Part shown: positions 1-20,865 of the stretch, piece after piece | How the letters are laid out: each line of letters begins with the position of its first letter | How positions within the stretch are numbered: the first letter of the stretch is position 1 | Assembly: GCA_005777315.1 (NCBI GenBank) | Contig: SXMN01000367.1 | Coordinates: 1-58,978, forward strand | From: Verrucomicrobiales bacterium | GTDB lineage: Bacteria; Verrucomicrobiota; Verrucomicrobiia; Limisphaerales; F1-12-MAGs170 | Length of the DNA: 58,978 nucleotides | Reading direction: 5' to 3' | Translations under genes and position numbers: made by a program | Notes under the pieces: model-generated | What the model saw: only the letters and a program-made list of their open reading frames with translations | The model's database searches: none | What the model was told of the DNA's origin: nothing

Positions 1-320
1 GATGCAGATGCGAGGCGCGAACGCGGGAGGATGCCCGCAGCGGCCTCTGACCAAGCGAGCAACGAAGCAGATGCGTCTGTGCCGCCGTCAAGATTTGTAG
101 CCTACCCCACGGTCTCCTCAGTAGCTCGCTTTGCCGACGTGCTCACCCCGGCCATCTTAACTTCCTCTTCCCCCCACAGCTTAGTGACGGAGGACGTCGT
201 TAACCAGTTTGCTGACATCGGGGCAGGCGTCCCATGATCGTGACTTCCCTCCGTCATCCTGCACCGGGGGAAGCGAGCGTGCGATCTGATGGGGCTTGGC
301 TACCGTGTGGACGCCGACTC

Positions 321-1511
321 TCAACCATCATTGCGCCGATAAAATCCCCGGACGAACATCCGGACCAGAAGCGCGAATGGAACGTGATCGGTCAGGTGGA
401 AACGGCGCTTTGGAAATTTCGACGCAGAAATCCGTGGCGCTTCGGAAATCTCCCGGATGAACGTGGCATACGTCCGGTTGTAACTGTCATTCAAGTGAGG
501 TTCGATCACCTCCCGGCAACGCGCGCGCCATTGGGCAACCTGTGCTTCCCCCGCCCGCACCACTTCGGACACAATCGACGCGACGCGAGTCAGATCCCGC
601 AGCTCATAGACAAACCGGCCATCCAATCGACGCACGTAATCATCCCCACCGCTCTGGATGTTTGGGAAGATCGGCAATATGCCCACGCTCATCGCCTCCA
701 GCAAAGACAACGGCAGCCCCTCGAAGTCGCTCGTGAACAAAATGGCGTCCCAACCGGCGACCACCTTCCAATAAGCTTCGCCACTCAGGTGTCCGTGGAA
801 TCGAACCTTCGGCGAACCGCCGAACTCTCGTTTCAGCCACGACTCCTGCGGGCCACTGCCGAGAAGCTCAAGACGGAAATCAACGCCCGTTTTCTCCAGC
901 GCGCGAACCACCTCGGGCAATCGATCCACCCGTTTCTGTTCGTTCACAAGGCGGGCGGAGAACCCAATCACAAACGTCCGTTTTCCGAGGGGCGGATGTT
1001 CCACAGGAAATGGACATTCAGGAAGTGGCATCGGCAAAAAGGCCATGCGCTCCGGCGGAAGCGAGGGGAGGAATCGCCTCACCGTCTCCCGCATCTGCTC
1101 GCTTGGATAAAGGACGCCATCCACCAGGCCTTCCTCCGCCGCGAGGCATTCGCCCAGCAGCGGCTCGTAGTAGGAATGCAGTGCTGCGATGCGCCGCGTC
1201 GAACGGTCAAGGTCAGCCAGAAATGGCAGCCCCCAGAAGTTGTTGTAAACCGCGACTGGTTTGCGCTCGTCCGAAGGAAGTTCACGGAGGTAGGAGCGGC
1301 GGGCACTCCAGACAGTGCTTTTCCAGCTCAAGCCGATTCCACGAACACGCCCATTCTCAATCGTTCCCTTTGGGTCGAAGAACGCGACGACGTTGGAGTC
1401 CAGCCCGAACCTTGCGTCGTTCTTGATGTGCAGGCGCAACATGCTCTGCACACCGCCAAGCGAACGGTAGAATGTGAAATAATGCGTTACCGGAATCGGA
1501 CTCATCTTCAA
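321..1511 (-). CDS. glycosyltransferase, GT-B fold (family 4-like)
   Basis: 396-aa ORF. C-terminal GT1/GT4-type region (ILFTSDFEGLPLSLLEAMSVGILPIF). First gene seen of a same-strand glycan block. Confidence 0.85.
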   Translation of the reverse strand: MKMSPIPVTHYFTFYRSLGGVQSMLRLHIKNDARFGLDSNVVAFFDPKGTIENGRVRGIGLSWKSTVWSARRSYLRELPSDERKPVAVYNNFWGLPFLADLDRSTRRIAALHSYYEPLLGECLAAEEGLVDGVLYPSEQMRETVRRFLPSLPPERMAFLPMPLPECPFPVEHPPLGKRTFVIGFSARLVNEQKRVDRLPEVVRALEKTGVDFRLELLGSGPQESWLKREFGGSPKVRFHGHLSGEAYWKVVAGWDAILFTSDFEGLPLSLLEAMSVGILPIFPNIQSGGDDYVRRLDGRFVYELRDLTRVASIVSEVVRAGEAQVAQWRARCREVIEPHLNDSYNRTYATFIREISEAPRISASKFPKRRFHLTDHVPFALLVRMFVRGFYRRNDG

Positions 1512-1570
1512 TTCAAGGAAGCTGCCGCCTTTGTCGTCAAGCTCTCGTCATGCAAGCGGCGCGTCGGCTG

Positions 1571-2737
1571 TCACAATTTGGCTGCCAGTTCGCCCAGTCG
1601 CGTTGCCCACGTATGACTCCGCATGACTCTTGCACGGCCTGCCTGCCCAATCAGCCGCGCACGCTCCGGCTCCCGCAACATCCGGCGGGTATTGTCCGCC
1701 GCTTCCCACATCGTGCGATACGTGAGAATTTCCTTTCCCACCTCGAAGGCTCTCGGCACGTCCTCATTGTGCTCCGTGAGATAGCAGCACCCGTAGCCTG
1801 GGAATTCTACATCGCGGAATTTCATGTAGCTCATGAATCGTCCCTGTTCATCCTTCCCTTGATTGAGGCCCAACACCACGCCGCAGCGTTGGATGAACGG
1901 TCCGAATTCCTCATCGCTCAACGCCCCTCCCGTCTGCGCCCGGACGAATTGCCAGAACACCCGGCGTAGTGCTTTTTCGACGAGCCCTCGTTTGAACAAC
2001 GCTTGCCATATTCGCTCAGATCGCGGCTTTGCGCTGTGGAATGGGTCCGGTCCATCGTTCGCCACCCAGCTTCGACCGCGTATCGTCACCCGGCATCCAA
2101 ACAACCTCAGCCATCCGAGTTGCGTGATCCGGTTTGATGAAGGCAGGCCGACAAAGGCCATCGGAACTTCGGGTGTTCGACAGCCTAAATCCGGCAGGCA
2201 CTCAGGGTTCATCGCGTAAGGTGCGCAAAGGCTCGGCACACCCAACGCCGCATAACGGCCCGCTGCCGCGCTCTCAGGAAACCAGTTGAGCGACACCACG
2301 CGCGCCAGCGGTTCCACTTTCTCGAACATGTGCGTGCTGTCACAGAAGAAATTGATCCAGGGAATGCCCCTTTGGATTGTCCGTTTCACCAGCTCCGGAT
2401 CGACATCCCACGCGAAGCAATAAGAGATCACCGCATCTAGCCCATGCTGCTGGTGCGCCTCACTGATCATTTTCCACAGTCGTTCGCTAGAAGTCGCACG
2501 TGGTTCGTCCAACGGCCCCGTGTCCACGTCATGCCCCTGTCGGGCCCAGTCGAAGTTCATTCCTTCGGGCGTGATCAGGATTTCCGTCAGTGGCCGCAGC
2601 GCATCGTAAATGTGTCTTCGCCAAAGAAACCGGTAATAGCCACTGGACACGTGACAATCGGGAGAGAGGGCGAAAATTTTGCGGGGAATCTTCACCTCAG
2701 AAAAGGCAGTCGAAACCACTGATTTCGCGGATTTCAC
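1571..2737 (-). CDS. CgeB-like glycosyltransferase (Glyco_trans_1_2 / DUF3880 type)
   Basis: 388-aa ORF. C-terminus (CCYLTEHNEDVPRAFEVGKEILTYRT...ARLIGQAGRARVMRSHTW) resembles the CgeB-family C-terminal GT domain, from recall only. Confidence 0.65.
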   Translation of the reverse strand: MKSAKSVVSTAFSEVKIPRKIFALSPDCHVSSGYYRFLWRRHIYDALRPLTEILITPEGMNFDWARQGHDVDTGPLDEPRATSSERLWKMISEAHQQHGLDAVISYCFAWDVDPELVKRTIQRGIPWINFFCDSTHMFEKVEPLARVVSLNWFPESAAAGRYAALGVPSLCAPYAMNPECLPDLGCRTPEVPMAFVGLPSSNRITQLGWLRLFGCRVTIRGRSWVANDGPDPFHSAKPRSERIWQALFKRGLVEKALRRVFWQFVRAQTGGALSDEEFGPFIQRCGVVLGLNQGKDEQGRFMSYMKFRDVEFPGYGCCYLTEHNEDVPRAFEVGKEILTYRTMWEAADNTRRMLREPERARLIGQAGRARVMRSHTWATRLGELAAKL

Positions 2738-7097: not shown

Positions 7098-9002
7098 ATG
7101 ACATCGAATCCAAGAATTACTCCGACCGAGGGTTCATCCATCCATCAAGTGGTCCGACTGCAATGCGGGACCCATCCTGACACTCCCATGCTGTTTGCAC
7201 CCAACTTTAAGCCGCTGACTTGGGCCGCTCTTGGTGCTCAACTGGACTATGCGGGCCAGGCTTTGCGCGAACGAGGCATCGGCCGGAACGACCGCGTTGC
7301 CGTGGTCCTGCCGGACGGTCCGGAGATGGCTGTGGCATTTCTGACCGTCTCCACGGCCGCCACTTTCGCCCCGCTCAATCCGACGTATCGGGCTGAAGAT
7401 TTTGAATTTTACTTAGCCGACCTGCAGGCCAGGGCGCTGATTCTCTCCGCAGGCCAGGAATCACCCGCCCGTGGGGTTGCACGAAAACGTGGCATTCCGA
7501 TTCTTGAATTAACCGCTCAACCCGGCGCGCCGGCCGGCCAGTTCAGATTGAAATCCGAGAATGCTCACCAGTCGTCTGTCGATCTCCCGGTGGAGTGGGC
7601 AGACTCTGATGACGTCGCTCTGGTCCTCCACACTTCAGGTACGACTTCGCGTCCGAAGATGGTTCCGCTGACCCACCGGAATCTTTGCAGCTCTGGCCTC
7701 CACATTGCCAGGACGCTCGGACTGACGCCCGCGGATCTCGGGTTGTGCGTGATGCCGTTGTTCCATATCCATGGGTTGATCGGAGCCTTGTTGTCGTCGG
7801 TTATGGCTGGTGCGCGCGTCGTCTGTGCTCCGGGGTTTTCGGCGTTGCGTTTCTTCGCCTGGCTGGATGAGTTCGAGCCTTCGTGGTACACGGCCGTGCC
7901 CACCATGCATCAGGCGATTCTCGCGCAGGCCGCGAGCCATGCTTCCATCATCAAGAGCCGTCCCCTACGGCTGATCAGGTCATCGTCCTCCGCTCTGCCA
8001 CCGCAGGTCATGCGGGGACTCGAAGCGGTCTTTGGCGCACCGGTCATCGAGTCCTACGGGATGACCGAAGCCTCCCATCAAATGGCGAGCAACCCGTTGC
8101 CGCCGCGCGAACGCAAGCCGGGGTCCGTTGGCCAGGCCGCCGGTCCCGAGGTTGCCATCATGGATCCAAAGGGCGGGTTGCTGAAGCTTGGAGAAACAGG
8201 CGAGATCGTGATTCAAGGTTCCAACGTCACCAAGGGTTACGAGAATAATCCAACCGCAAACGCCACGGCATTCACGAACGGCTGGTTTCGAACGGGCGAC
8301 CAGGGTTATCTGGATTTGGATGGCTATCTGTTCATTACTGGACGGCTCAAGGAATTGATCAACCGCGGCGGCGAGAAGGTTGCGCCGCGTGAAATCGATG
8401 AGGCCTTGCTGAACCACCCGGCCGTCCGGCAGGCGGTGGCATTTGCGGTGCCTCACCTCACCCTGGGCGAAGACATCGCGGCCGCCGTTGTTGTACAGGA
8501 CGGACAGAGCGTGAGCGAATCCGAGTTGCGCCGCTTTGTCGCGCATCATTTGCCGCCCTTCAAGCTTCCCACCCGGATCGTTGTGTTGAAGGACATTCCA
8601 AAGGGGCCGACAGGCAAGATCCAGCGGATCGGGATGGCTGACCGTTTGTCAAGGGAGCTTGCCGTCGCCTACGAACCTCCATCGGGAACATTCGAGGAGT
8701 TGGTTGCCTCGATCTACGAGCAGGTGCTGGGACACGACCGGATCGGGCGAGGGAACAACTTCTTCGCCGTCGGCGGAGACTCCATCCGCGCAATGCATGT
8801 CATGTTCAGGTTGAGAGAATCCCTCGGGATCGAATTGCCTGTGTCCACTCTGTTCGAGAACCCAACGCCGGCAATGCTGGCACTTGTACTGGAGAGCCGG
8901 GTCGCGGAACTGGACGTGGAGTCACTCGCCGAAGATCTGCGGAAACTCCCTCCCGAGGAGGTTGCCCGACTTCTTGATGATTCGCTCTCCAAGCCGCTGT
9001 GA
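7098..9002 (+). CDS. adenylate-forming acyl ligase fused to a C-terminal carrier protein (A-T didomain); A domain resembles the AAE3/Pcs60 oxalate-CoA ligase clade
   Basis: ANL motifs LHTSGTTSRPK, GWFRTGD, GRLKELINRGGEK and PKGPTGKIQR. C-terminal PCP motif FFAVGGDSIRAM, with the Ser codon at 8781-8783. Start chosen at ATG 7098 (track ORF begins at 7017). Confidence 0.9.
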   Translation: MTSNPRITPTEGSSIHQVVRLQCGTHPDTPMLFAPNFKPLTWAALGAQLDYAGQALRERGIGRNDRVAVVLPDGPEMAVAFLTVSTAATFAPLNPTYRAEDFEFYLADLQARALILSAGQESPARGVARKRGIPILELTAQPGAPAGQFRLKSENAHQSSVDLPVEWADSDDVALVLHTSGTTSRPKMVPLTHRNLCSSGLHIARTLGLTPADLGLCVMPLFHIHGLIGALLSSVMAGARVVCAPGFSALRFFAWLDEFEPSWYTAVPTMHQAILAQAASHASIIKSRPLRLIRSSSSALPPQVMRGLEAVFGAPVIESYGMTEASHQMASNPLPPRERKPGSVGQAAGPEVAIMDPKGGLLKLGETGEIVIQGSNVTKGYENNPTANATAFTNGWFRTGDQGYLDLDGYLFITGRLKELINRGGEKVAPREIDEALLNHPAVRQAVAFAVPHLTLGEDIAAAVVVQDGQSVSESELRRFVAHHLPPFKLPTRIVVLKDIPKGPTGKIQRIGMADRLSRELAVAYEPPSGTFEELVASIYEQVLGHDRIGRGNNFFAVGGDSIRAMHVMFRLRESLGIELPVSTLFENPTPAMLALVLESRVAELDVESLAEDLRKLPPEEVARLLDDSLSKPL

Positions 9003-10726
9003 TGAGTGTTAACAAGTCAGGCTTGATCGAACGGCTAAAGTCACTCCCCTCGGAGAAACTGGCCCGACTCCGGCAGGAGGTCGCTTCTCGCCTGACTGTC
9101 GGTCACGCTCAAGTGGCCGAGTCCCTCAAGCGTTGTGGGATCAAGCGAGTGTATGGCATCAGCGGCACGCCGGTGGACCAGATCTTCGCAGCGTGCGCCG
9201 CGCGCGGCATCCGGCCCATCTCAGCGGCGAATCAAAATGCCGCCGTTCTGATGGCGGCGGCGGGCAACTATGTGGCCGGATGCCTCGAGTCCGTCGTGGT
9301 GCTCTCTGCGGGGCCCGCCGTGGCCAATTCTGTGATGGGAATACTCGTCGCGCACGACAACGGATGGCCCGTGCTCGTTTTCGGCGGCCGCCGGGCGCTC
9401 CACAAAGAAGGCATCGGCTACTTCCAGGAACTGGATGCCGTGCCGATTCTTTCGCCATTGACCAGGATGTCTGCCACGGTTCGAAACACCTCCGAGATCA
9501 CTGATTCGGTCTTTCAAGCCTTCACCACGGCCCAAACCGGACGGCGCGGGCCCGTGTACATCGATCTCCCGGAGGATGTCCTGGAAGGATATTCGCTAGA
9601 GCGCCGGACGCCATCCCCAGAACTGCCGCCGCGATCGGAAATCGACTTAAAGGCTGTCCAGAGCGCGGCCCGGCTCGTTGCGGAAGCGGAGCGACCTTTG
9701 CTGATCCTCGGCGAAGACCTTCGCTGGTCCTTTCAGCCGGAGTCGTTGCGCAAGTTGGTCGAAGGTTTTGGAATCCCATTCATCACGTCGCCGATGGGAC
9801 GCGGCTATTTGCCCGATGATCATCCCCTCTGCGCGAACGAAGCGCGACGGTGGTTTCAAGGCCAGGCCGACGTCGTTGTCATGGCTGGGGCGTGGCTTGA
9901 CTGGCGGTTTCGATTCGGCACGGAGCTGGCCGTGGATGCGAGAGTGATCCACGCGGACACCGACACGAAAACCCTGGGCAAAAACGGTGTACCCAAAGTC
10001 GCCGTCATGGGCGAACCGGGAGAATTTCTGTCCCTTTTGGCCGACGCCCTCGGCACCGATATGAACGGTGTCGGCGGGCACCGGTATGCCGCATGGCGCA
10101 AGGTGATGGTGGAAGCCATCGCCGAGAGACGCAAATCGTCTGAAGAGTGGCTTTACCAACAGGCCGTCCCGCTGCTGCCTCAACAGCTCTTTCTGGCGGT
10201 GCGCGATGTCCTGCCGGCGGACAGCATCATCGCAGTCGAAGGCAACATCTGCCTGGCAGCGGCGCAGAAGATCCTGCAAGCCCGTCGTCCCGCTTCCTGG
10301 TTGGACCCGGGCAGAAACGGCGTGATTGGCGCCAGCATCCCCTTTGCGATGGGCGCGAAACTGGCCTGTCCGGAGCGTCCGGTTGTTGCCTTTTGCAGCG
10401 ACACAGGGTTTAGCATGAGCGCGATGGATCTTGAAGCTGCCGTGCGCCATCGCATCTCTATCATCGTCGTGATCGCGAACAACGATGGAAACAGCGGTTC
10501 GGTGAGGCAGAAAAAATTCTTCCCTGTCGGCTACCCCGAGCGGTTTTCGGAGTTCCTCCCAGGCCTGCGGTATGAGCGAATCATGGACATGTTCGGAGGC
10601 CATGCCGAATACATTACGGAAGCAGCGGCAATTCGCCCTGGATTCGAACACGCCCTCGCTTCGGGCGTTCCCGCCTGCCTCAACGTTCGTCTGGATCCGC
10701 ACGCTCCGCATTCGGGTTTCTGGTAG
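8999..10726 (+). CDS. ThDP-dependent enzyme of the acetolactate synthase / oxalyl-CoA decarboxylase / 2-hydroxyacyl-CoA lyase fold
   Basis: 575-aa ORF. Three-domain ALS-like layout (GISGTPVDQIF..., central SPMGRGYLPDDHP, C-terminal SDTGFSM...ANNDGN ThDP/Mg motif). ATGA overlap with the upstream A-T gene. About 45 aa N-terminal extension. Confidence 0.9.
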   Translation: MMSVNKSGLIERLKSLPSEKLARLRQEVASRLTVGHAQVAESLKRCGIKRVYGISGTPVDQIFAACAARGIRPISAANQNAAVLMAAAGNYVAGCLESVVVLSAGPAVANSVMGILVAHDNGWPVLVFGGRRALHKEGIGYFQELDAVPILSPLTRMSATVRNTSEITDSVFQAFTTAQTGRRGPVYIDLPEDVLEGYSLERRTPSPELPPRSEIDLKAVQSAARLVAEAERPLLILGEDLRWSFQPESLRKLVEGFGIPFITSPMGRGYLPDDHPLCANEARRWFQGQADVVVMAGAWLDWRFRFGTELAVDARVIHADTDTKTLGKNGVPKVAVMGEPGEFLSLLADALGTDMNGVGGHRYAAWRKVMVEAIAERRKSSEEWLYQQAVPLLPQQLFLAVRDVLPADSIIAVEGNICLAAAQKILQARRPASWLDPGRNGVIGASIPFAMGAKLACPERPVVAFCSDTGFSMSAMDLEAAVRHRISIIVVIANNDGNSGSVRQKKFFPVGYPERFSEFLPGLRYERIMDMFGGHAEYITEAAAIRPGFEHALASGVPACLNVRLDPHAPHSGFW

Positions 10727-11052: not shown

Positions 11053-11131
11053 AGCAGCAGTTTTGGGATGCAGTGTGGAAAATCAAATTGCGGTCCGCTG
11101 AAATCATCTAAAAGTCCAATAAACCGAGTGT

Positions 11132-11171
11132 GGAAGGGTGGCTGAGTGGTTGAAGGCACCTGACTCGAAAT
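11132..11171 (+). repeat. displaced 5' half of tRNA-Ser(CGA); att-type direct repeat (attL side)
   Basis: 40 nt identical to 20776-20815 (acceptor 5' strand through the anticodon loop). Identity stops one base after the loop. No 3' half follows. Confidence 0.85.
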
Positions 11172-11193
11172 TCAAAGCAGCCGGTTTTCTCAT

Positions 11194-11213
11194 TTTTGCC
11201 CACATTAGCGCAA
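11194..11213 (+). repeat. 20-nt direct repeat copy 1 (TTTTGCCCACATTAGCGCAA)
   Basis: Repeated with one mismatch at 11267-11286. Contains the imperfect inverted half-sites TTGCCC/GCGCAA. Confidence 0.6.
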
Positions 11214-11266
11214 CGCATCAAATGCACATGGATATTGGTCGGAATCGCCTTTTAGCTTGCCGCCAC

Positions 11267-11286
11267 TTTTGCCCACTTTAGCGCAA
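11267..11286 (+). repeat. 20-nt direct repeat copy 2 (TTTTGCCCACTTTAGCGCAA)
   Basis: See copy 1. The two copies start 73 bp apart, just inside the island's left end. Confidence 0.6.
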
Positions 11287-11297
11287 AAATGACCGGC

Positions 11298-11320
11298 CAG
11301 TATAGAAATGCAGTATAGAA
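11298..11320 (+). repeat. 23-nt motif CAGTATAGAAATGCAGTATAGAA (internal tandem CAGTATAGAA), left-arm copy
   Basis: An exact second copy lies at 20701-20723, between the integrase start and the tRNA. Confidence 0.7.
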
Positions 11321-11431
11321 TGATGGGTTCCCTGAAAGGTAGCGGCTCTGACCCTTTGGCACTTCCTGCCTTGAATCCGAGGACGCCCAAGCCTTGCATC
11401 CTATAACGGGGAGCGTTACGGTGTCCCGGCA

Positions 11432-11713
11432 ATGATACGGAACTTCGCCTGCCCTGAGACAGAGCGGCTGTTCTATGACGAGGCGGTGCGGCGGCTTCCA
11501 CCCGGCATTCAGCGGGTAGCCCGGCGCAAGCTGCTCCTGTTGCACCAGGCGCGGCGCGTCGATGATTTAAGGTCGCCGCCAGGAAACCGGCTGGAAACGT
11601 TGAAGGGCGACAGGAACGGGCAGCACAGCGTCCGTATCAATGACCAGTGGCGGCTGTGCTTCCGCTGGCAGGACGCAGACGCTTACGACGTGGAAATCGT
11701 GGACTATCACTGA
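11432..11713 (+). CDS. higB: HigB-type toxin (RelE/ParE superfamily, plasmid maintenance killer protein)
   Basis: 93 aa. C-terminus LKGDRNGQHSVRINDQWRLCFRWQDADAYDVEIVDYH is typical of HigB. Followed 2 nt later by higA. Confidence 0.9.
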   Translation: MIRNFACPETERLFYDEAVRRLPPGIQRVARRKLLLLHQARRVDDLRSPPGNRLETLKGDRNGQHSVRINDQWRLCFRWQDADAYDVEIVDYH

Positions 11714-11715
11714 GC

Positions 11716-12033
11716 ATGAAGACGAAGAAACTGGAACCGATCCATCCGGGAGAAATCCTCCGGGAAGAGTTCATGCAACCGCTCGGCTTGTCTCAGAACG
11801 CGCTGGCGCGGGCGCTCCGGGTTCCGCCCCGGCGCATCAATGAGATTGTGATGGAGAAGCGCGGCATCACGGCGGACACGGCCTTGCGGCTGGCCCGATA
11901 CTTTGGCACCAGCGCGGAATTGTGGACGGGCTTGCAGGCGGACTATGAGTTGCGGATGGCGCGTTACGAGACGGAGAGGGAAATCGAACGCGAAGTGTCG
12001 CCGCTTCATTCGGCAGCCCCGGTGCCGGCGTGA
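11716..12033 (+). CDS. higA: HigA-type antitoxin (XRE-family HTH)
   Basis: IHPGEILREEFMQPLGLSQNALARALRVPPRRINEIVMEKRGITADTALRLARYFGTSAELW is the HigA signature. Start placed at ATG 11716 inside track ORF 11647-12033. Confidence 0.9.
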   Translation: MKTKKLEPIHPGEILREEFMQPLGLSQNALARALRVPPRRINEIVMEKRGITADTALRLARYFGTSAELWTGLQADYELRMARYETEREIEREVSPLHSAAPVPA

Positions 12034-12067
12034 TCGCAGCCACCTTCTTCTACTTTATCTGGCGAGA

Positions 12068-12427
12068 TCAGGTCGGGCGAAAGCGGACGCGCCAAGTCTC
12101 CACGATCGCGAGTCGTCCGGGCAACCGTTCGATCAACTCCCTCTGCGAAAGAAACGAGTCCAACGCGCTCACGACGACATTTGCCACGGCATCGTCCGGC
12201 AACTGCAACACGACAATGCCGGAATAGTTTTCCGGCGGATAATTGCGGATGTCGGCAAAGTCGAAGTCCCGCGTGACCAGGGCCATGTCATGCGCTCGCG
12301 CGTGTCGCGCAATTGCCGCGTCATCCGGCCCCAATCCCACATCCCGGACATGCACCGCTTCGTGCCCGTGGCGAAGGAGCAATGGCCCGGTCGAACGCGG
12401 CATGTTGGCATCGATCAGAAAGTGCAT
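12068..12427 (-). CDS. DUF5615-family PIN-like protein (putative toxin)
   Basis: 119 aa. MHFLIDANMP...ALVTRDFDFADI. Lies directly downstream (7-nt gap) of a DUF433 gene, the usual pairing. Confidence 0.8.
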   Translation of the reverse strand: MHFLIDANMPRSTGPLLLRHGHEAVHVRDVGLGPDDAAIARHARAHDMALVTRDFDFADIRNYPPENYSGIVVLQLPDDAVANVVVSALDSFLSQRELIERLPGRLAIVETWRVRFRPT

Positions 12428-12434
12428 TGGCAGA

Positions 12435-12671
12435 TCAGCCGGGCAACGGATGATACTGCTCCTGCTCCACCAAATCCCCGGCGAACTTCAGGGCCGCCCG
12501 GATGTCCTCCATGCTCAGGTCGTATTCCTTCTGCACGGCGTCGAAAGTCATCCCTCCCGCGAGGCTGCCTACCACCAATGCCACGGGCATTCGCGTGCCA
12601 CGGATCACGGGCTTGCCGTGGCAGACCTTCGGGTCGATCACGATTCGTTCCAGCAAGTCGTCTCGTTTCAT
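12435..12671 (-). CDS. DUF433 domain protein (putative antitoxin)
   Basis: IVIDPKVCHGKPVIRGTRMPVALVVGSLAGGMTFDAVQKEY is the DUF433 core. Start placed at ATG 12671 inside track ORF 12435-12821. Confidence 0.8.
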   Translation of the reverse strand: MKRDDLLERIVIDPKVCHGKPVIRGTRMPVALVVGSLAGGMTFDAVQKEYDLSMEDIRAALKFAGDLVEQEQYHPLPG

Positions 12672-12866
12672 GGAATGCAGTGTAACCGAATCGACGAGTT
12701 TCGACAGCAGGGATTTTGTGTGTGGAGAGGGCAGCAATTCTCCGGGGAAGATTTCCGCAGCCTTGGGGAGGGAACGCCACGGAATTTTCAAAGGTTCGGA
12801 ACATAGATCGAAGATCAACAAAACGCAGCGAAGCTGACCGAAAGAGAGGCAAAATGCGACTCAACC

Positions 12867-14018
12867 TTATCGTGCCTTCATCCGATAAAACCATCCGGGA
12901 CGATCCGCGACGACGCCATCGGTCCAAGTCCCTTTCCCGATTGAATCCAGAGCTACGTTGCCTATCTGCTCCCAAGGGCCGTTAGGCACGGGTGAGCCCT
13001 CCACGACTACAGTGGAGTTCGGTGTGCCCGTCACGACGAGGCGTGCAACCATCGCGATGGATGTGATTACGGGTTGCTGGAACGGCGGTTCGGTAAGCGG
13101 TAATGAATCCCACGCCAGCGCGAAGTTGACCGTGTCATTAGACGTGAAGACACGGATGCTTTTATCGCTTCTTCTGAAAACACCAAGGATAGGCTGTGGC
13201 ATGACTGTTTCCACAGTGGTGCCGTCAGTCGCGTGAAAGCGCAGGGTCTCTCTTTGCCAGGCGAAAATCCCACCGGGCACGAGCAGAACCTTCCAGCCGG
13301 AATCAATGAACGCCAAGGGCACCAGAGACTCGCCTCGCAGGACGAAGAGCCTCCACTTGAGGTTCAAACTGTCTCTGATGAAGGTTCCAAGTTCACCACT
13401 AAAGACCGGTTCGACGATGAGATCCGTGACCTGATGCCAGAGCCTGCCGTCCAAGGAGCGCCAGGTTCCAGTACCTGTGCCTACGAAACTCTCTCCGTCA
13501 AAATACACTTGAGTTAGCGAGATCTTGGTTCCGTTCACCGGCCCCCACGGGTTAAGGTATTCTTTCCATGTGGCACCTGAATCCTCAGAAACGTAAACAA
13601 TGTTCTGCGCCACAGTGATCCACCGCGCCCCGTTGACTGCTGTCGATGTACCCAGGGCACCAGGGCGGGAATGCGCAATTCTTACGCTCTTGCCATCGAT
13701 TATTCGATAGAGGTTCGTCGCGACTTGGAAGACTCCGAGACCACGATGGATGGTGCGGTCAATATGGCCTAAGAAGCTGTATGTTAGCCGCGCGATGTTC
13801 TTTGCAGTCGTCCCTCCATCGATAGAGAAGGCAGCGTAATCACCTGGAGAGTATGGGTCCAAATCCTTGCCTTGCCCGACAATCACGCCGTCCACAGCGT
13901 AGCCCACGAGATTGAACTGCGATGCCGCTTGCTTCCACGGGGTCAGGGAGATGTCCAAGGAACGGGTGCCAACGGCGGACATTAGAATTGCCAGCATCAC
14001 TGCAATCGGAGTCTTCAT
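12867..14018 (-). CDS. exported protein with Asp-box (BNR-like) motifs, function unknown
   Basis: 383 aa. N-terminal signal-like MKTPIAVMLAILMSAVG. SEDSGATW matches S-x-D-x-G-x-T-W, with weaker FSIDGGTT and RSLDGRLW. C-terminal beta-sandwich-like tail ending GWFYRMKAR. Confidence 0.75.
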   Translation of the reverse strand: MKTPIAVMLAILMSAVGTRSLDISLTPWKQAASQFNLVGYAVDGVIVGQGKDLDPYSPGDYAAFSIDGGTTAKNIARLTYSFLGHIDRTIHRGLGVFQVATNLYRIIDGKSVRIAHSRPGALGTSTAVNGARWITVAQNIVYVSEDSGATWKEYLNPWGPVNGTKISLTQVYFDGESFVGTGTGTWRSLDGRLWHQVTDLIVEPVFSGELGTFIRDSLNLKWRLFVLRGESLVPLAFIDSGWKVLLVPGGIFAWQRETLRFHATDGTTVETVMPQPILGVFRRSDKSIRVFTSNDTVNFALAWDSLPLTEPPFQQPVITSIAMVARLVVTGTPNSTVVVEGSPVPNGPWEQIGNVALDSIGKGTWTDGVVADRPGWFYRMKAR

Positions 14019-14398
14019 GTTTTGATTCGCTTAAGTTCTTTCTCCCACAGGGACACGATTACATTCCTCCGTATCGGGAATTACTCAATCGAAATCAGTC
14101 ACCATCACGGGAAACTCCGAGTGAACGCAGCCGTGTGCCTTCAAGCATCGACCGGTTCACCCTCATCCTGTCGGCTATCCGCTGATACCGGACAATTTTG
14201 AGCGGTGCAACATTGGGACCGCTTCAGTCCACGATCACGTCCGGCTTGAGATTCCACCGTCCGAGCTGATTGGCGTCGATCCAGTCCATCACCGCCGCAC
14301 GGTCGGGAACTTCCGTCCAGAATTTACCGTGCTCAACCGCTCCCATGAACATGGATCAGGCTTGATGCAAAAAGCGTCCTTTCTCCACCGGCAGCTTC

Positions 14399-14683
14399 TC
14401 AAACACGGCTCCGGGCGTTCTGTAGCATTTCTTCCAACTGGCTCCGTATCGCCGTCCTGAACTGTTTTTTCGTCCAGCCCGGAAACGTTTCGGGAGACTC
14501 TCTTTCAAGGGTCTCACGGACCTCTTCGATAAGTGCTTTCAGTGTTTTCTCCTTCTCCTCGTCAGACCCGCCAATGATCCCGGAAACCTCATCGCTCCGT
14601 GATGTTCGCGCCACGGCTGACGGCTCGAACGTTCGCGAGACATTCGTTGCATCGCTTCTCAAGTTCGGAGCGTATCTGGTCAA
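14399..14683 (-). CDS. hypothetical protein (weak call)
   Basis: 94-aa ORF overlapping the upstream ORF by 95 nt in another frame. The real start is probably internal (GTG), or the two ORFs are joined by a frameshift. Confidence 0.3.
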   Translation of the reverse strand: MTRYAPNLRSDATNVSRTFEPSAVARTSRSDEVSGIIGGSDEEKEKTLKALIEEVRETLERESPETFPGWTKKQFRTAIRSQLEEMLQNARSRV

Positions 14684-15143
14684 CCGTCATTCCGTTCAGC
14701 ACAACAGGGCATTCTGAAATCATGTTTTGCATCCACTGTTTAACCGGACCTAGAAGCGCCCACATCAACTCTCCAACTTCATCCTCGGTCCACAACTCGT
14801 CATTGATCTTCTGCGTTCGTGCTTCGAGTGATGCGACTTGTGCGACGAGTTTGCGTGTTTCCAGGGCTTCCATCGGGTCCGGCACGCCCACGTTCGCATC
14901 AAGCCAGCCTTCGGGAAATTCTCCAGGTCGAACCCTGCCGCCGCGCATGGATGGATGCCCGGAGTTTTTCAGCCGCTTGAGTGCGGCCATCGAGACTCTC
15001 AACGCTGTGGAAGCTCGTTTCAGCGTGTCATAAGTGCGGTCGGTCGGGATGGCTTCCGCTGTCGTTTTGCTCCTGGCTTTTGTGCCGTCAGTTTTCATTG
15101 GGATTTGTGATTCGGGTGTTTTTCCGTTTTTTTCATGTCTCAC
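14589..15143 (-). CDS. hypothetical protein; possible Nu1/DUF1441-like small terminase subunit (weak)
   Basis: 184 aa. HTH-like TLKRASTALRVSMAALKRLKNSGHPSMRGG followed by a coiled-coil-like region. The architecture recalls lambda Nu1-type TerS, by eye only. Confidence 0.5.
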   Translation of the reverse strand: MRHEKNGKTPESQIPMKTDGTKARSKTTAEAIPTDRTYDTLKRASTALRVSMAALKRLKNSGHPSMRGGRVRPGEFPEGWLDANVGVPDPMEALETRKLVAQVASLEARTQKINDELWTEDEVGELMWALLGPVKQWMQNMISECPVVLNGMTVDQIRSELEKRCNECLANVRAVSRGANITER

Positions 15144-15197
15144 GTTTTTTGCGACGGGTGGCCTTGGCTGTTGCCCTGGGAGGAAGTAAAAGATTCC

Positions 15198-15398
15198 TTA
15201 CCGGGGGTGGGGTGGCCTTCGGGAATGGCCTGCCCGCGCTCTTGGCTGGCCTGCGGACGCGCTTGGATGCACTGCAAGCCGGAATCCGCGAAGCGCCACC
15301 TTCAACGCGCCCTTGAGCCGTTGCTCAGGCGTCCGGCGCAACACACGGTCTGGCAATGGCCGTAGGAGAATCACATAGTTTGGCGGCTGCTCAGTCAT
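15198..15398 (-). CDS. small hypothetical protein
   Basis: 66 aa. Its start overlaps the upstream stop in an ATGA (15395-15398). Confidence 0.45.
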   Translation of the reverse strand: MTEQPPNYVILLRPLPDRVLRRTPEQRLKGALKVALRGFRLAVHPSASAGQPRARAGHSRRPPHPR

Positions 15399-15598
15399 GC
15401 CTGAATGGCTTTCAACTTCTGCCGATGGATTGTCAGCCGTTGGCCGTGTTCATCCAGGCAGCGGAAGAACCCGGCTTTCTCGGATGGTCCAAGAATGCGG
15501 ACGCGTACCCGGGCGACCGGCGCGTAGTCAGGTCCGAGTGTGGCGATGAAGTGTGCGGTTGCTTGGGCCAGCGGATTTGCGTTTGTGTTTGTGGTCAT
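15395..15598 (-). CDS. small hypothetical protein
   Basis: 67 aa from ATG 15598 (MTTNTNANPL...). ATGA overlap with the upstream ORF stop at 15595-15598. The track ORF extends to 15712. Confidence 0.45.
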   Translation of the reverse strand: MTTNTNANPLAQATAHFIATLGPDYAPVARVRVRILGPSEKAGFFRCLDEHGQRLTIHRQKLKAIQA

Positions 15599-16215
15599 CG
15601 AGGTATCCTTGGCATTCGCTCCTGTATTCGTGGTGCTGAGTGAAGTGGCTGGCCTGTTCGACTCCAGCCAATCAGCCGACCGCGTGCTCCAAGTTGTGGG
15701 TGCGAAGACCATCTCGGGTCGTTGCGTAGTGCCAGCCAGGTTGCCAACACGTCAACGAAGTCTCCAGGTATTGGCTCGTCAGGACGCAAGACCATCGGAA
15801 CGCTTTTGCGACATGACCTGGACTCTTCAGTTGGTCTGGTGACGATCCTCTCCTGAGCAGTGGGTGGCGTGATGAGAGGATGTGGCGGGGGTGTCTTGGG
15901 CTCTATTTTCCAGACTACGCGGACGGCTGCTGACCTTGGTTGGCGGACGGCGCGGAGTTGTCCACCAGCCTTGCGCCGTGCATCCTCCAACTTGTGCGCC
16001 AGTTCCTTTTCAGCCCAGAGCGGTTGGCAATGCGTGCCATTCCACTCTCGCAGCACGGCCATTGCGTCCGCGTCTGACAAACCAAAGCGGACACACTCGC
16101 ACGCGGCGCGGAATGTCGCCGGGTGTCCACCAGCGCCGGACACGGCAGGCGGAACCTTGGCAAGGTAGGCTCGGCAGGCGGTAAGGGCATTCATGGCAGG
16201 CTTTCCTTGCTCCAC
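15595..16215 (-). CDS. PriCT-like (primase C-terminal helical) domain protein
   Basis: N-terminal ~95 aa (GGHPATFRAACECVRFGLSDADAMAVLREWNGTHCQPLWAEKELAHKLEDARRK) resemble PriCT domains. The rest is Pro/Arg-rich and low-complexity. Confidence 0.6.
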   Translation of the reverse strand: MEQGKPAMNALTACRAYLAKVPPAVSGAGGHPATFRAACECVRFGLSDADAMAVLREWNGTHCQPLWAEKELAHKLEDARRKAGGQLRAVRQPRSAAVRVVWKIEPKTPPPHPLITPPTAQERIVTRPTEESRSCRKSVPMVLRPDEPIPGDFVDVLATWLALRNDPRWSSHPQLGARGRLIGWSRTGQPLHSAPRIQERMPRIPR

Positions 16216-16311
16216 CCAACTCCACCCAAGGGGCTATACTCCTTAAGAAAGACACGGTTTTTCATAGTCTATAGACCCTTGGGTGGGCTTGGGTGGTTGG
16301 GTGGTTTTGAT

Positions 16312-18438: not shown

Positions 18439-18577
18439 TCAACACCGCCCTTCATCGCGCGCTGGCGCTTCCCACGAAAATCCGAGACGCGCTGTCCCGG
18501 CGACCAGCCGCGACGCAGGACGCGCTCAACGAGACGGCGGGTGCTGCCAGAACTGCGGGATGCACGGAGACCACGCT

Positions 18578-18796
18578 TCAATTTGCCTCCTCAGCCAGGA
18601 ACCTGTTGATCTCCGCCACGCTGATCAGCTTGTGACGAAGCGCATTCGACGCTTTGAGTTTGCCGCGCTGGATCAGGCGGTAAACCGAGTGGTAGTTGAC
18701 ACCGAGAGCCTGTGCGGCCTCCTCGATCTTGAAGGCCATCCGTGGAATCGGAATCGGCTGTGGAACGGATTTTTCTGCGGGCGCAAGGTTTGTCAT
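18578..18796 (-). CDS. excisionase/AlpA-family helix-turn-helix protein
   Basis: 72 aa. FKIEEAAQALGVNYHSVYRLIQRGKLKA is the HTH_17/excisionase-type motif. Located between the integrase module and the replication module. Confidence 0.8.
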   Translation of the reverse strand: MTNLAPAEKSVPQPIPIPRMAFKIEEAAQALGVNYHSVYRLIQRGKLKASNALRHKLISVAEINRFLAEEAN

Positions 18797-18857
18797 GCGC
18801 CCAATGTATTTACGCCGATCTTAGCTCATTGGAACACCATTGATTGTTTCCAAGGAA

Positions 18858-20695: not shown

Positions 20696-20700
20696 AACGG

Positions 20701-20775: not shown

Positions 20776-20865
20776 GGAAGGGTGGCTGAGTGGTTGAAGG
20801 CACCTGACTCGAAATCAGGCGTAGTCGAAAGGCTACCGTGGGTTCAAATCCCACCCCTTCCGCCA
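20776..20865 (+). tRNA. tRNA-Ser (anticodon CGA)
   Basis: Hand-folded cloverleaf. Acceptor GGAAGGG/CCCTTCC, anticodon stem CCTGA/TCAGG with loop CTCGAAA, long variable arm, T arm GTGGG-TTCAAAT-CCCAC, encoded CCA. Confidence 0.9.

What the first reader, a model, noticed from the sequence alone, without database searches (positions are those of the whole stretch)
7098..10726. Carrier-protein-fused AAE3/oxalate-ligase-like adenylase coupled to an Oxc/HACL/ALS-fold ThDP enzyme inside a glycan locus
Seen in sequence: a stand-alone A-T didomain (GGDS phosphopantetheinylation site, Ser codon 8781-8783) whose stop overlaps the start of a ThDP enzyme (ATGA at 8999-9002). No condensation, thioesterase or acyltransferase domain lies nearby. 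By eye the adenylation domain tracks plant AAE3 / yeast Pcs60 oxalate-CoA ligases closely (LHTSGTTSRPK..., PLFHIHGL, WYTAVPTMHQ, SYGMTEASHQMASNPLP, GWFRTGDQGYLD). The partner resembles oxalyl-CoA decarboxylase / 2-hydroxyacyl-CoA lyase (PMGRGYLPDDHP, ...ANNDGN). It also has a ~45-aa helical N-terminal extension that could dock the carrier domain. Established knowledge: AAE3 plus Oxc convert oxalate to oxalyl-CoA and then formyl-CoA, and HACL/Oxc enzymes also run C1 acyloin condensations on CoA thioesters. Inference: here the thioester would be carrier-tethered rather than CoA-bound. That suggests a carrier-bound C1/C2 or 2-hydroxyacyl unit (formyl, glycolyl, lactyl) made for decorating an amino sugar. 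I do not know of a described system with this arrangement.
Basis: partly seen in the sequence, partly recalled or inferred. Interest (0 to 1): 0.75.

Follow-up and report, generated by a model that had tools for sequence, protein, structure and literature searches.

The report
Orphan oxalate-type NRPS starter cassette
Two overlapping genes encode an oxalate-type acid-activating enzyme fused to a carrier domain, plus a thiamine enzyme related to oxalyl-CoA decarboxylase that lacks the usual catalytic glutamate; in nearly all relatives this pair starts a nonribosomal peptide rather than decorating a sugar, and I found no published description of such carrier-bound thiamine chemistry.

Summary
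Window 7098-9002 encodes an A-T didomain and 9002-10726 a three-domain ThDP enzyme. The genes overlap, and no C, TE or acyltransferase domain was found in the 59-kb window.

The A domain is AAE3/Pcs60-like (421 bits to AtAAE3; best non-oxalate acyl-CoA ligase 208 bits). It keeps the oxalate-specific Ser and His. The ThDP protein is HACL/OXC-like by sequence and predicted fold.

The pairing is real. In 54 of 54 related loci the AAE3-like A(-T) gene sits directly upstream. Single-chain A-T-ThDP fusions also exist.

The glycan reading is not supported. In 45 of 47 loci an NRPS condensation domain follows within 2 kb. A-T genes without the ThDP partner usually lead straight into a C domain. The cassette is therefore an NRPS starter unit, and the window copy is an orphan without its C domain.

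The ThDP proteins form a monophyletic clade. The cofactor-activating Glu is Gln in 111 of 111 homologues. One of two acyl-CoA-binding Arg is Gln, and the C-terminal CoA lid is gone.

Best model: oxalyl-S-carrier is decarboxylated on ThDP to a formyl or 2-hydroxyacyl cap. I found no published description.

The parts
7098..9002 (+). A-T didomain gene (634 aa from ATG 7098; a gene caller used GTG 7035). AAE3/oxalate-ligase-like adenylation domain fused to a thiolation (carrier) domain and a C-terminal tail.
   Evidence: Pfam AMP-binding, AMP-binding_C and PP-binding. Best solved relatives are AtAAE3 5ie0 (421 bits), 6qjz and Pcs60 8aff.
7632..7658 (+). ANL P-loop TSGTTSRPK (aa 179-187).
   Evidence: Most of its positions are invariant in alignment A1.
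7974..8078 (+). Oxalate-pocket residues. IRSSSSAL contains Ser297, equivalent to AtAAE3 Ser289. YGMTEASH contains His327, equivalent to AtAAE3 His319.
   Evidence: Residue-by-residue alignment to 5ie0. Residue roles come from PMC8905533. S297 and H327 are invariant in the 25 sequences of A1.
8703..8882 (+). Thiolation (PCP-type) domain. GGDS at 8772-8783, phosphopantetheinyl Ser562 codon at 8781-8783.
   Evidence: Pfam PP-binding aa 536-595. Sequence read.
8925..8975 (+). C-terminal tail LAEDLRKLPPEEVARLL, a docking-type helix motif after the carrier domain.
   Evidence: The motif 'EL.KLPPEEA.RLL' recurs in homologues with and without a ThDP partner.
9002..10726 (+). ThDP enzyme gene (574 aa; alternative GTG start at 8999). 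Member of a Glu-less clade of the HACL/OXC family.
   Evidence: Pfam TPP_enzyme_N/M/C. Best PDB sequence match is HACL/S at 261 bits. AF2 model pLDDT 86; the top 42 Foldseek hits are all HACL/S or OXC.
9020..9082 (+). N-terminal extension motif GLIERLKSLPSEKLARLRQEV, predicted as two helices (aa 5-13 and 17-29). Docking-type element.
   Evidence: The same motif type occurs at the N-termini of downstream C-domain proteins.
9233..9235 (+). Gln78 codon, at the position of the canonical ThDP-activating Glu (OfOXC E56; ApbHACL/S E54).
   Evidence: Gln in 111 of 111 homologues. Gln in nearly all top representatives.
10238..10267 (+). EGNICLAAAQ. Asn415 replaces MeOXC Ala415, which is fully conserved in HACL/OXC. 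Gln422 replaces the acyl-CoA-binding Arg (OfOXC R408; ApbHACL/S R400).
   Evidence: Residue roles come from PMC11271303 and PMC8411744.
10397..10492 (+). ThDP-Mg binding motif SDT...NNDGN. Asp467 and Asn494 are retained; the first Gly of the GDG motif is Ser.
   Evidence: D and N are invariant in the family.
10694..10723 (+). Short C-terminus DPHAPHSGFW, in place of the basic C-terminal lid that covers CoA in OXC and HACL/S.
   Evidence: Family tails listed. Lid residues R545, K546, Q548 and W552 are described in PMC11271303.
11127..11171 (+). 45-bp exact copy of the 5' half of tRNA-Ser(CGA) plus 5 upstream bases. It marks one end of an integrated island and shows what lay downstream of the pair before insertion.
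20776..20865 (+). Intact tRNA-Ser(CGA), the other end of the island. Integrase gene at 19538-20695 (-).
   Evidence: ARAGORN. Pfam Phage_integrase.

Best explanation
The two genes are the first two parts of a widespread, undescribed NRPS starter-unit cassette. The usual gene order is A(AAE3-like)-T, then a Glu-less HACL/OXC-type ThDP enzyme, sometimes an ICL/PEP-mutase-family lyase, then a C domain and the rest of an NRPS.

Proposed steps, with status:
1. The A domain adenylates oxalate and loads it on the phosphopantetheine arm of its own T domain as oxalyl-S-T. Inferred from the conserved oxalate pocket.
2. The ThDP enzyme is recruited through an N-terminal docking helix. It attacks the carrier-bound thioester carbonyl and removes CO2, leaving a ThDP-bound formyl-anion equivalent. 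Inferred from HACL/OXC homology and from loss of the CoA-specific contacts.
3. That intermediate is either protonated to formyl-S-T, or trapped by an aldehyde or ketone to give 2-hydroxyacyl-S-T. The outcome is undecided. The OXC proton-relay residues are absent, as in HACL/S and the engineered carboligase MeOXC4. However, no aldehyde-supplying gene is conserved.
4. In relatives, the downstream C domain transfers the cap to the first amino acid.

The window copy has intact genes that keep every family-invariant residue, but no C domain in 59 kb. It is an orphan cassette. It works either with a partner encoded elsewhere in the genome or not at all. Its position next to glycan genes is most likely incidental.
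For: A domain:
- 421 bits to AtAAE3; best non-oxalate acyl-CoA ligase FadD13 scores 208.
- The oxalate-specific Ser289/His319 equivalents are invariant.

ThDP protein:
- HACL/S 261 bits, EcOXC 203, OfOXC 170, best ALS 155.
- Foldseek TM 0.84-0.92 to HACL/S and OXC.

Coupling:
- 54 of 54 loci have the AAE3-like A(-T) gene directly upstream. 45 of 47 have a C domain within 2 kb downstream.
- The closest relatives, L169 (75% identity), L168 (71%) and L088 (68%), all have a C domain.
- A-T-ThDP single-chain fusions exist: P0260, P0273, P0309 and P0248.
- A-T genes without the ThDP gene have a C domain directly downstream or fused in 9 of 16 genome loci (L003-L006, L008, L012, L049, L067, L075).
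- Most downstream C domains carry HHxxxDG.

Carrier rather than CoA:
- R408 is Gln in 111 of 111 homologues, and the C-terminal lid is replaced.
- The Gln-type proteins form one clade in 30 of 30 NJ bootstraps.
- A T-less A-OXC fusion from Chlorokybus keeps Glu and both Arg.

Oxalate supply:
- An ICL/PEP-mutase-family gene lies in or next to 11 cassettes. Its best solved relatives are the petal death protein and oxaloacetate acetylhydrolase.

Docking:
- Related helix motifs occur on the A-T tail, the ThDP N-terminus and the C-protein N-termini. Tail length and extension length correlate (rho 0.52).
Against: - No biochemical data exist for any member.
- The activating Glu is missing. Glu-to-Gln variants of other ThDP enzymes are strongly impaired (my own knowledge), so catalysis may be slow or different in kind.
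- Substrate identity rests on pocket conservation only. Glyoxylate, glycolate or oxamate cannot be excluded.
- The ICL-family gene scores about equally to methylisocitrate lyase.
- The docking correlation is not corrected for phylogeny. The A-T tail also occurs without a ThDP partner.
- In the window the off-loading enzyme is absent, so function there is unproven.
- Both proteins score below every curated NCBIfam cut-off.
Confidence: 0.6

Rival explanations
1. The carrier-bound C1/C2 or 2-hydroxyacyl unit is made to N- or O-acylate an amino sugar of the polysaccharide encoded around the pair. An acyltransferase in the glycan locus would do the transfer.
For: The pair is divergently transcribed from a glycan block, 145 bp away: two FkbM methyltransferases, a flippase, a methyltransferase and two GTs. 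A large amino-sugar locus follows at 28-55 kb. No C domain was found in the window. Carrier-dependent N-acylation of O-antigen sugars has precedent in V. cholerae O1 RfbK-O (my own knowledge).
Against: In 45 of 47 relatives the acceptor machinery is an NRPS C domain. No glycan gene family is conserved beside the pair across 82 loci. No acyltransferase candidate was found near the pair or among the unannotated window ORFs. The nearest relatives sit in unrelated contexts, for example a TonB receptor and an aldehyde dehydrogenase in L168.
Confidence: 0.1
2. The window copy is an evolutionary remnant. The NRPS part was lost and the two genes are no longer used. They may be on the way to decay or expressed without a product.
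For: This is 1 of only 2 loci among 47 without a downstream C domain. The pair sits at a recombination-prone spot, next to a tRNA-Ser with an integrated island.
Against: Both ORFs are intact and overlap as in translationally coupled pairs. They keep all residues that are invariant in alignments A1 and A2. The island inserted into the tRNA, not into an NRPS gene. No C-domain or ICL-gene remnant is detectable. The same sequence was recovered on 10 contigs.
Confidence: 0.2
3. The Glu-less ThDP protein is not a catalyst. It is a structural partner, gatekeeper or chaperone for the loaded carrier domain, and the cap delivered to the NRPS is simply oxalyl.
For: The canonical activating Glu is Gln in every member. 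A-T genes lacking the ThDP partner also feed C domains, so the ThDP step is dispensable for starter function.
Against: The Mg-ThDP ligands Asp467 and Asn494 are invariant, and 68 columns are invariant down to 45% identity, including active-site F141, Q142 and N415. Glyoxylate carboligase shows that ThDP catalysis without the Glu is possible (my own knowledge). A clade-wide ordered set of active-site changes suggests retuning rather than decay.
Confidence: 0.1
4. Ordinary oxalate catabolism. An oxalyl-CoA synthetase and an oxalyl-CoA decarboxylase detoxify or use oxalate through CoA thioesters.
For: Both proteins' nearest characterised relatives carry out exactly this pathway. JGI names some homologues oxalate-CoA ligase and 2-hydroxyacyl-CoA lyase.
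Against: The ligase carries a fused PCP domain with an intact Ser. The ThDP clade lacks the OXC proton relay (Y120, E121, Y483, S553), one CoA-binding Arg, the lid and the activating Glu. The context is NRPS and includes no formyl-CoA transferase. The stand-alone bacterial AAE3 homologues, which lack a T domain, do not have this ThDP neighbour.
Confidence: 0.03

Closest known systems
Oxalyl-CoA synthetase (plant AAE3, yeast Pcs60) plus oxalyl-CoA decarboxylase (OXC): the CoA-dependent oxalate degradation pair
   Same: The same two enzyme superfamilies in the same order. The A domain keeps the oxalate pocket, including the Ser289/His319 equivalents. The ThDP protein has the three-domain OXC/HACL fold with the Mg-ThDP ligands.
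   Different: The thioester acceptor is a fused carrier domain, not CoA. The ThDP enzyme lacks the activating Glu, the OXC proton relay (Y120, E121, Y483, S553), one acyl-CoA Arg and the C-terminal lid. The genomic context is NRPS, not catabolism.
[quoted passage not shown]
   Same: These are the best sequence and structure matches. They share the F-Q-E active-site triad. Like MeOXC4, the clade has lost the residues that protonate the carbanion, which favours C-C bond formation from a formyl-anion equivalent.
   Different: HACL/S enzymes use CoA thioesters, keep Glu50/54 and both Arg (R260, R400), and close a basic C-terminal lid over CoA. Here Glu is Gln, R400 is Gln, the conserved Ala (MeOXC A415) is Asn, and the C-terminus is short.
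Glyoxylate carboligase (Gcl)
   Same: To my knowledge the only well-studied natural ThDP enzyme without the canonical activating glutamate. It also works on a C2 acid with decarboxylation.
   Different: Gcl has Val, not Gln, at that position. It is FAD-binding and ALS-like, acts on free glyoxylate, and has no carrier or CoA substrate. Here it scores far lower (about 130 bits).
NRPS initiation modules that install N-caps: the LgrA formylation domain, starter C domains with acyl-ACP, and the ThDP/lipoyl-dependent glycolicacyl-S-ACP system of quinocarcin and naphthyridinomycin (my own knowledge)
   Same: A stand-alone or N-terminal A-T (or ACP) presents a small acyl group to the first C domain. 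In the quinocarcin system a ThDP enzyme builds a C2 unit that ends up on a carrier protein.
   Different: The formyl group in LgrA comes from formyl-tetrahydrofolate. The quinocarcin system uses transketolase/E1-E2-type proteins and ketose phosphates. No known system uses an AAE3-type A domain or an HACL/OXC-type enzyme acting on a PCP-bound thioester.

Membership tests
AAE3/Pcs60 oxalate-CoA ligase (ANL superfamily) | ANL adenylate-forming fold and core motifs (P-loop, YGMTE, GWxxTGD, catalytic Lys) | tested here: met
   Pfam AMP-binding 6e-75 and AMP-binding_C. Motifs at aa 179-187, 320-327, 395-401 and 501-507.
AAE3/Pcs60 oxalate-CoA ligase (ANL superfamily) | Closest similarity to experimentally characterised oxalyl-CoA synthetases rather than to other acyl-CoA ligases | tested here: met
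   5ie0 421 bits, 6qjz 411, 8aff 378. The best non-oxalate acyl-CoA ligase, FadD13, scores 208.
AAE3/Pcs60 oxalate-CoA ligase (ANL superfamily) | Oxalate-specific pocket residues Ser289 and His319 (AtAAE3 numbering) | tested here: met
   Window Ser297 and His327. The rest of the pocket reads I, H, S, G, M, K against V215, H216, C288, A313, M314, K500. Both residues are invariant in A1.
AAE3/Pcs60 oxalate-CoA ligase (ANL superfamily) | Free CoA as thioester acceptor, in a stand-alone ~515-aa enzyme | tested here: not met
   A PP-binding domain with GGDS is fused at aa 536-595. Whether CoA can also be used is not testable here.
AAE3/Pcs60 oxalate-CoA ligase (ANL superfamily) | Curated NCBIfam cut-off of the nearest model (FadD7 family, NF004511) | tested here: not met
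   404.8 bits against a cut-off of 650.
HACL/OXC family (ThDP- and CoA-dependent) | Three-domain PYR-R-PP fold, closest to HACL/S and OXC structures | tested here: met
   Pfam N/M/C domains. AF2 pLDDT 86. All top 42 Foldseek hits are HACL/S or OXC, TM 0.84-0.92.
HACL/OXC family (ThDP- and CoA-dependent) | Mg-ThDP binding motif (GDG...NN) | tested here: met
   Motif reads SDT...NNDGN. Asp467 and Asn494 are invariant in the family; the first Gly is Ser.
HACL/OXC family (ThDP- and CoA-dependent) | Canonical cofactor-activating Glu (OfOXC E56; HACL/S E50/54) | tested here: not met
   Gln78 in the window. Gln in 111 of 111 homologues and throughout a monophyletic clade.
HACL/OXC family (ThDP- and CoA-dependent) | Two Arg that bind acyl-CoA (ApbHACL/S R260 and R400) | tested here: not met
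   The R260 equivalent is kept (R282). The R400 equivalent is Gln422 in 111 of 111.
HACL/OXC family (ThDP- and CoA-dependent) | C-terminal lid with basic residues that folds over CoA | tested here: not met
   The protein ends ...DPHAPHSGFW eight residues after the last strand. No Arg or Lys is present; only a terminal Trp is conserved.
HACL/OXC family (ThDP- and CoA-dependent) | OXC-specific proton relay Y120, E121, Y483, S553 (OfOXC numbering) | tested here: not met
   F141, Q142 and S/T/C at these positions, with no lid Ser. The triad is HACL/S-like F-Q-E.
HACL/OXC family (ThDP- and CoA-dependent) | ADP-binding Arg pair in the R domain (ApbHACL/S R156 and R276) | tested here: inconclusive
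   The R156 equivalent is kept. The R276 equivalent is Trp in the window and varies across the family (R 45, W 38, S 17).
NRPS initiation (starter) module | A-T didomain with a phosphopantetheinylation Ser | tested here: met
NRPS initiation (starter) module | A condensation domain that accepts the loaded acyl group | tested here: not met
   None found in the 59-kb window. Present in 45 of 47 related loci.
Acetolactate synthase / acetohydroxyacid synthase | Closest similarity to ALS/AHAS enzymes | tested here: not met
   The best solved ALS scores 155 bits against 261 for HACL/S. The top NCBIfam model, NF004516, is named 'acetolactate synthase', but the score is 345 against a cut-off of 587. 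The OXC and HACL models come next.

The most novel reading that the evidence does not exclude
The Glu-less clade is a natural, carrier-protein-dependent 'formyl-anion' carboligase. Oxalate serves as an activated C1 donor. After decarboxylation on ThDP, the carrier-bound carbanion adds to a cellular aldehyde or ketone and builds a 2-hydroxyacyl starter unit directly on an NRPS. This would be nature's counterpart of the engineered OXS-OXC/MeOXC4 one-carbon extension cascade. The Glu-to-Gln, Ala-to-Asn and Arg-to-Gln changes would retune ThDP chemistry for a tethered substrate.
Probability: 0.3. Interest if true: 0.85.

Novelty: new variant of a known kind. Interest (0 to 1): 0.7.

Why it matters
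- HACL/OXC enzymes are central to synthetic one-carbon assimilation, and all known members need CoA thioesters and the canonical Glu. A natural, monophyletic branch that works on carrier-bound substrates without that Glu would widen the known mechanistic range of ThDP catalysis. So far only glyoxylate carboligase is a well-studied Glu-less case.
- It could give protein engineers a scaffold that accepts pantetheine-tethered substrates.
- For natural-product research, it defines an unrecognised starter-unit logic using oxalate as a building block. The cassette occurs in NRPS clusters of largely uncultured Verrucomicrobiota, Nitrospirota, Planctomycetota, Cyanobacteria and candidate deltaproteobacterial and Binatia lineages. 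It predicts N-oxalyl, N-formyl or N-(2-hydroxyacyl) peptides.
- It gives genome miners a simple signature: an AAE3-like A-T gene next to an 'RHQQ' ThDP enzyme.

Tried and rejected
1. A conserved FAD-linked oxidase partner. The window ORF 234..1616 (+) that I first took for the FAD_binding_4 gene is a spurious antisense ORF over the GT1 gene 321..1505 (-). The real FAD gene lies outside the window. The GlcD-like gene in L084 recurs in no other locus.
2. The island deleted the NRPS. Rejected. The 45-bp tRNA-Ser repeat shows a clean insertion into the tRNA. No C-domain or ICL-gene remnant is detectable at E up to 10.
3. The A-T tail docks specifically to the ThDP protein. Only partly upheld. The tail also occurs in loci without the ThDP gene, and C-protein N-termini carry the same motif.
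4. A conserved aldehyde-supplying neighbour gene. None was found by clustering 487 neighbouring ORFs.
5. An hmmalign-based residue mapping gave nonsense. I replaced it with pairwise blastp mapping.
6. Six full-text literature searches for a described carrier-dependent HACL/OXC enzyme or an oxalate-loading NRPS module found nothing relevant. The library lacks many subscription papers, so this is not proof of absence.
7. I did not attempt Stachelhaus-code prediction of the first acceptor amino acid.

Full report
**1. What is in the sequence**

Window 7098-9002 (+) encodes a 634-aa protein with Pfam AMP-binding, AMP-binding_C and PP-binding domains.

The next ORF, 9002-10726 (+), encodes a 574-aa protein with the three ThDP-enzyme domains. 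The junction reads CTG TGA TG. The stop is at 9000-9002 and the start is either ATG 9002 or GTG 8999. The genes therefore overlap by 1 or 4 nt; the sequence is not 'ATGA'.

The window matches a metagenome contig, ENA ERZ27257033 k141_1503. A PSCyt/PSD1 protein in the window and a Verrucomicrobiota best named homologue suggest a Verrucomicrobiota or Planctomycetota origin.

**2. Surroundings**

- Upstream and divergently transcribed: two FkbM-type methyltransferases, a flippase, a SAM methyltransferase and two GT1/GT4-type glycosyltransferases.
- From about 28 to 55 kb: a large amino-sugar locus.
- Downstream of the ThDP gene: about 400 bp, then a 45-bp exact copy of the 5' half of tRNA-Ser(CGA) at 11127-11171.
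- Next: a 9.6-kb island with two toxin-antitoxin pairs, a BT4734-like_N protein and an integrase.
- Finally: the intact tRNA-Ser at 20776-20865.

Before the island arrived, the pair was followed by the tRNA and a peptidase gene. No condensation, thioesterase or acyltransferase domain, and no remnant of one, was found in the window.

**3. The A domain**

Against all solved structures, the best matches are three oxalate-CoA ligases: Arabidopsis AAE3 (5ie0, 421 bits), Lathyrus oxalyl-CoA synthetase (6qjz, 411 bits) and yeast Pcs60 (8aff, 378 bits). Multi-domain NRPS chains come next because the T domain also matches. The best other acyl-CoA ligase, FadD13, scores 208 bits.

PMC8905533 lists the oxalate pocket of AtAAE3 as V215, H216, C288, S289, A313, M314, H319 and K500, with S289 and H319 specific to oxalyl-CoA synthetases. 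In the printed alignment the window has I, H, S, S297, G, M, H327 and K.

S297 and H327 are invariant in 25 diverse A-T homologues. That last step is an inference.

**4. The ThDP protein**

Its best solved relatives by sequence are 2-hydroxyacyl-CoA lyase/synthases (8vzf, 6xn8; about 260 bits). E. coli OXC follows at 203, O. formigenes OXC at 170, and the best acetolactate synthase at 155.

An AF2 model (pLDDT 86, pTM 0.89) matches HACL/S and OXC structures with TM 0.84-0.92. All 42 top Foldseek hits belong to that family. The protein is therefore not an ordinary acetolactate synthase.

The top NCBIfam model is named 'acetolactate synthase', but the score is below its cut-off. The OXC and HACL models come next.

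**5. A clade without the catalytic glutamate**

The changes are:

| Position (reference numbering) | Normal role | In this clade |
|---|---|---|
| OfOXC E56 / HACL/S E50/54 | activates ThDP | Gln in 111 of 111 ('RHQQ' instead of 'RHEQ'; ANQNAA, Gln78, in the window) |
| ApbHACL/S R400 / OfOXC R408 | binds acyl-CoA | Gln in 111 of 111 |
| ApbHACL/S R260 | binds acyl-CoA | retained |
| MeOXC A415 | fully conserved Ala in HACL/OXC | Asn |
| OfOXC Y120, E121, Y483, S553 | OXC proton relay | absent (F, Q, S/T/C, no lid Ser) |
| C-terminal lid (R545, K546, Q548, W552) | folds over CoA | short ...DPxAPxPGxW end |

The Mg-ThDP ligands Asp467 and Asn494 stay invariant.

A full HMMER scan of 1.84 billion representatives showed the same pairing. 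Gln/Gln occurs in nearly all of the top ~47 representatives. Glu/Arg, or Glu with Ala or Gly, occurs in lower-ranked ones.

In NJ trees all 35 full-length Gln-type representatives form one clade. The only non-Gln member has Gly. The clade is recovered in 30 of 30 bootstrap replicates.

**6. Is the pairing real?**

Yes. I fetched loci around ThDP-clade homologues from metagenomes and genomes.

- All 54 loci with at least 1.5 kb upstream have an AAE3-like A(-T) gene directly upstream on the same strand.
- Single polypeptides with the architecture A-T-ThDP exist and recur on several contigs: P0260 (1185 aa), P0273 (1153 aa), P0309 and P0248. All are Gln-type.
- One contrast is telling. A fusion from the alga Chlorokybus atmophyticus (P0319) joins an AAE3-like A domain to an OXC/HACL domain with no carrier domain. 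It keeps the Glu and both Arg.

Loss of the CoA contacts thus goes with presence of the carrier domain.

**7. What the pair is for**

- In 45 of 47 loci with at least 1.5 kb downstream, an NRPS condensation domain starts within 2 kb. It follows either directly or after an ICL/PEP-mutase-family gene. The two exceptions are the window and a locus with only 1.9 kb of flank.
- The nearest relatives, at 75, 71 and 68% identity, all have the C domain.
- Most of these C domains carry HHxxxDG.
- AAE3-like A-T genes without the ThDP gene have a C domain directly downstream or fused in 9 of 16 genome loci, for example in Gemmatimonadota, Verrucomicrobia and cyanobacteria.
- Clustering 487 neighbouring ORFs found only three recurrent families: A-T/NRPS, ThDP, and the ICL-family gene in 11 loci. 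No glycan gene and no aldehyde-forming enzyme recurs.

The cassette is therefore an NRPS starter-unit module with an optional ThDP tailoring step. The glycan neighbourhood of the window copy looks incidental.

**8. Docking elements**

- The A-T protein ends in a helix-type tail (consensus EL.KLPPEEA.RLL; window 8925-8975).
- The ThDP protein begins with about 33 extra residues, predicted as two helices, carrying L.ERLK.LP.EK.A.L (window 9020-9082).
- The downstream C-domain proteins begin with the same kind of motif (L..RL..LSPAKRALL).
- Across 59 non-identical loci, tail length and ThDP extension length correlate (Spearman 0.52, p = 2e-5, not corrected for phylogeny).

The tail is not specific to the ThDP partner, however, and the extension is about 33 aa rather than about 45.

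**9. Mechanism**

Shown: the domain content, the conserved order and fusion, the conserved oxalate pocket, the retained ThDP-Mg site, and the lost Glu, Arg and lid.

Inferred: oxalate is adenylated and loaded as oxalyl-S-T. The ThDP ylide adds to the thioester carbonyl. CO2 leaves and gives the same carbanion/enamine that OXC and HACL share (PMC8411744).

Two outcomes are then possible:
- Protonation gives formyl-S-T and hence an N-formyl cap.
- Capture of a carbonyl compound gives 2-hydroxyacyl-S-T.

Absence of the OXC proton relay resembles HACL/S and the engineered carboligase MeOXC4. MeOXC4 converts oxalyl-CoA directly to glycolyl-CoA and barely releases formyl-CoA. That favours carboligation. 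Absence of any conserved aldehyde-supplying gene favours the simpler formyl outcome. I cannot decide between them.

The ICL-family gene's best solved relatives are the petal death protein and oxaloacetate acetylhydrolase, followed closely by methylisocitrate lyase. Both of the first two make oxalate from oxaloacetate. This fits an oxalate-supply role but does not prove it.

What Gln78 does is unknown. Glyoxylate carboligase shows that ThDP catalysis without the Glu is possible (my own knowledge).

**10. The window copy**

Both genes are intact and overlapping, and they keep every invariant residue of their families. Without a C domain the loaded group has no visible acceptor.

Either a partner is encoded elsewhere in the genome or the cassette is an orphan remnant. 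A glycan acceptor is possible but has no positive evidence.

**11. Comparison with known systems and novelty**

The parts belong to known superfamilies, and the closest pathway is AAE3 plus OXC. Membership of the HACL/OXC family in the strict sense fails on four tested defining features: the Glu, one CoA Arg, the lid and the curated cut-offs.

Six full-text literature searches found no description of an HACL/OXC-type enzyme acting on a carrier protein or of an oxalate-loading NRPS module. Kim et al. 2024 mention a clade of HACL/S homologues with no detected activity and no predicted function. Whether that clade is this one I could not check.

I rate this a new variant of a known kind, with interest 0.7.

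Noticed in passing
window 11127-20865: A 9.6-kb integrated island bounded by a 45-bp exact direct repeat (11127-11171 = 20771-20815), which is the 5' half of tRNA-Ser(CGA). It carries HigB/HTH_3 and PIN/DUF433 toxin-antitoxin pairs, a 708-aa BT4734-like_N protein, an HTH_17 protein and a tyrosine integrase (19538-20695, - strand). The duplicated part is the 5' half of the tRNA rather than the more usual 3' end.
   Followed up: partly
window 51469-55209: Inside the glycan locus lie an aldo-keto reductase and a second ThDP system: an E1 alpha subunit (52415-53461) and an E1 beta/transketolase-like subunit (53466-54458). These sit directly before the initiating Bac_transf sugar transferase (54463-55209). 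A two-subunit ThDP enzyme in a polysaccharide locus could install a C2 side chain on a sugar.
   Followed up: no
window 28104-49288: Two sets of Wbp-like genes for 2,3-diamino uronic acids: UDP-sugar dehydrogenase, GFO/IDH oxidoreductases, DegT aminotransferases and hexapeptide acetyltransferases. With them are an asparagine synthase-like amidotransferase (38267-40195), a HisH/HisF-like pair (40276-41699) and a PP-loop ATPase-like ORF (48191-49285). This suggests amidated or amidino-modified sugars.
   Followed up: no
window 32013-33700: A SLFN_AlbA_2/HATPase_c_4 protein and a nucleotidyltransferase with NTase_sub_bind (a toxin-antitoxin-like pair) are inserted in the middle of the glycan locus.
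   Followed up: no
window 234-1616 (+): A 460-aa ORF with no family match lies antisense to the real GT1 gene (321-1505, - strand). It is an example of the long spurious ORFs this 58% GC sequence produces, and I first mistook it for a neighbouring FAD oxidase gene.
   Followed up: yes
P0319 (EukProt, Chlorokybus atmophyticus), 1105 aa: A eukaryotic single-chain fusion of an AAE3-like oxalate ligase and a canonical (Glu, Arg, Arg) OXC/HACL domain with no carrier domain. If the gene model is right, this is a fused CoA-dependent oxalate pathway.
   Followed up: partly
P0048, P0059, P0066, P0077, P0085 and others; loci L003-L012, L067, L075: The AAE3-like A-T architecture is very common: 8000 hits in the first search. 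It also occurs as A-T-TE (with a thioesterase) and as A-T followed directly by, or fused to, a C domain without the ThDP gene. This implies other fates for the same loaded acid, possibly N-oxalyl caps.
   Followed up: partly
L083 11673-12719; L169 4558-5262; L093-L097, L149, L151: An ICL/PEP-mutase-family gene is embedded in or next to 11 cassettes. In L083 it overlaps the end of the ThDP gene. Its best solved relatives are the petal death protein and oxaloacetate acetylhydrolase. In L089 and L132 only a ~30-aa remnant of it survives between the ThDP and C genes.
   Followed up: partly
window 55248-56393 (-): A DDE_3/HTH_32 transposase gene lies just after the Bac_transf gene at the end of the glycan locus.
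   Followed up: no
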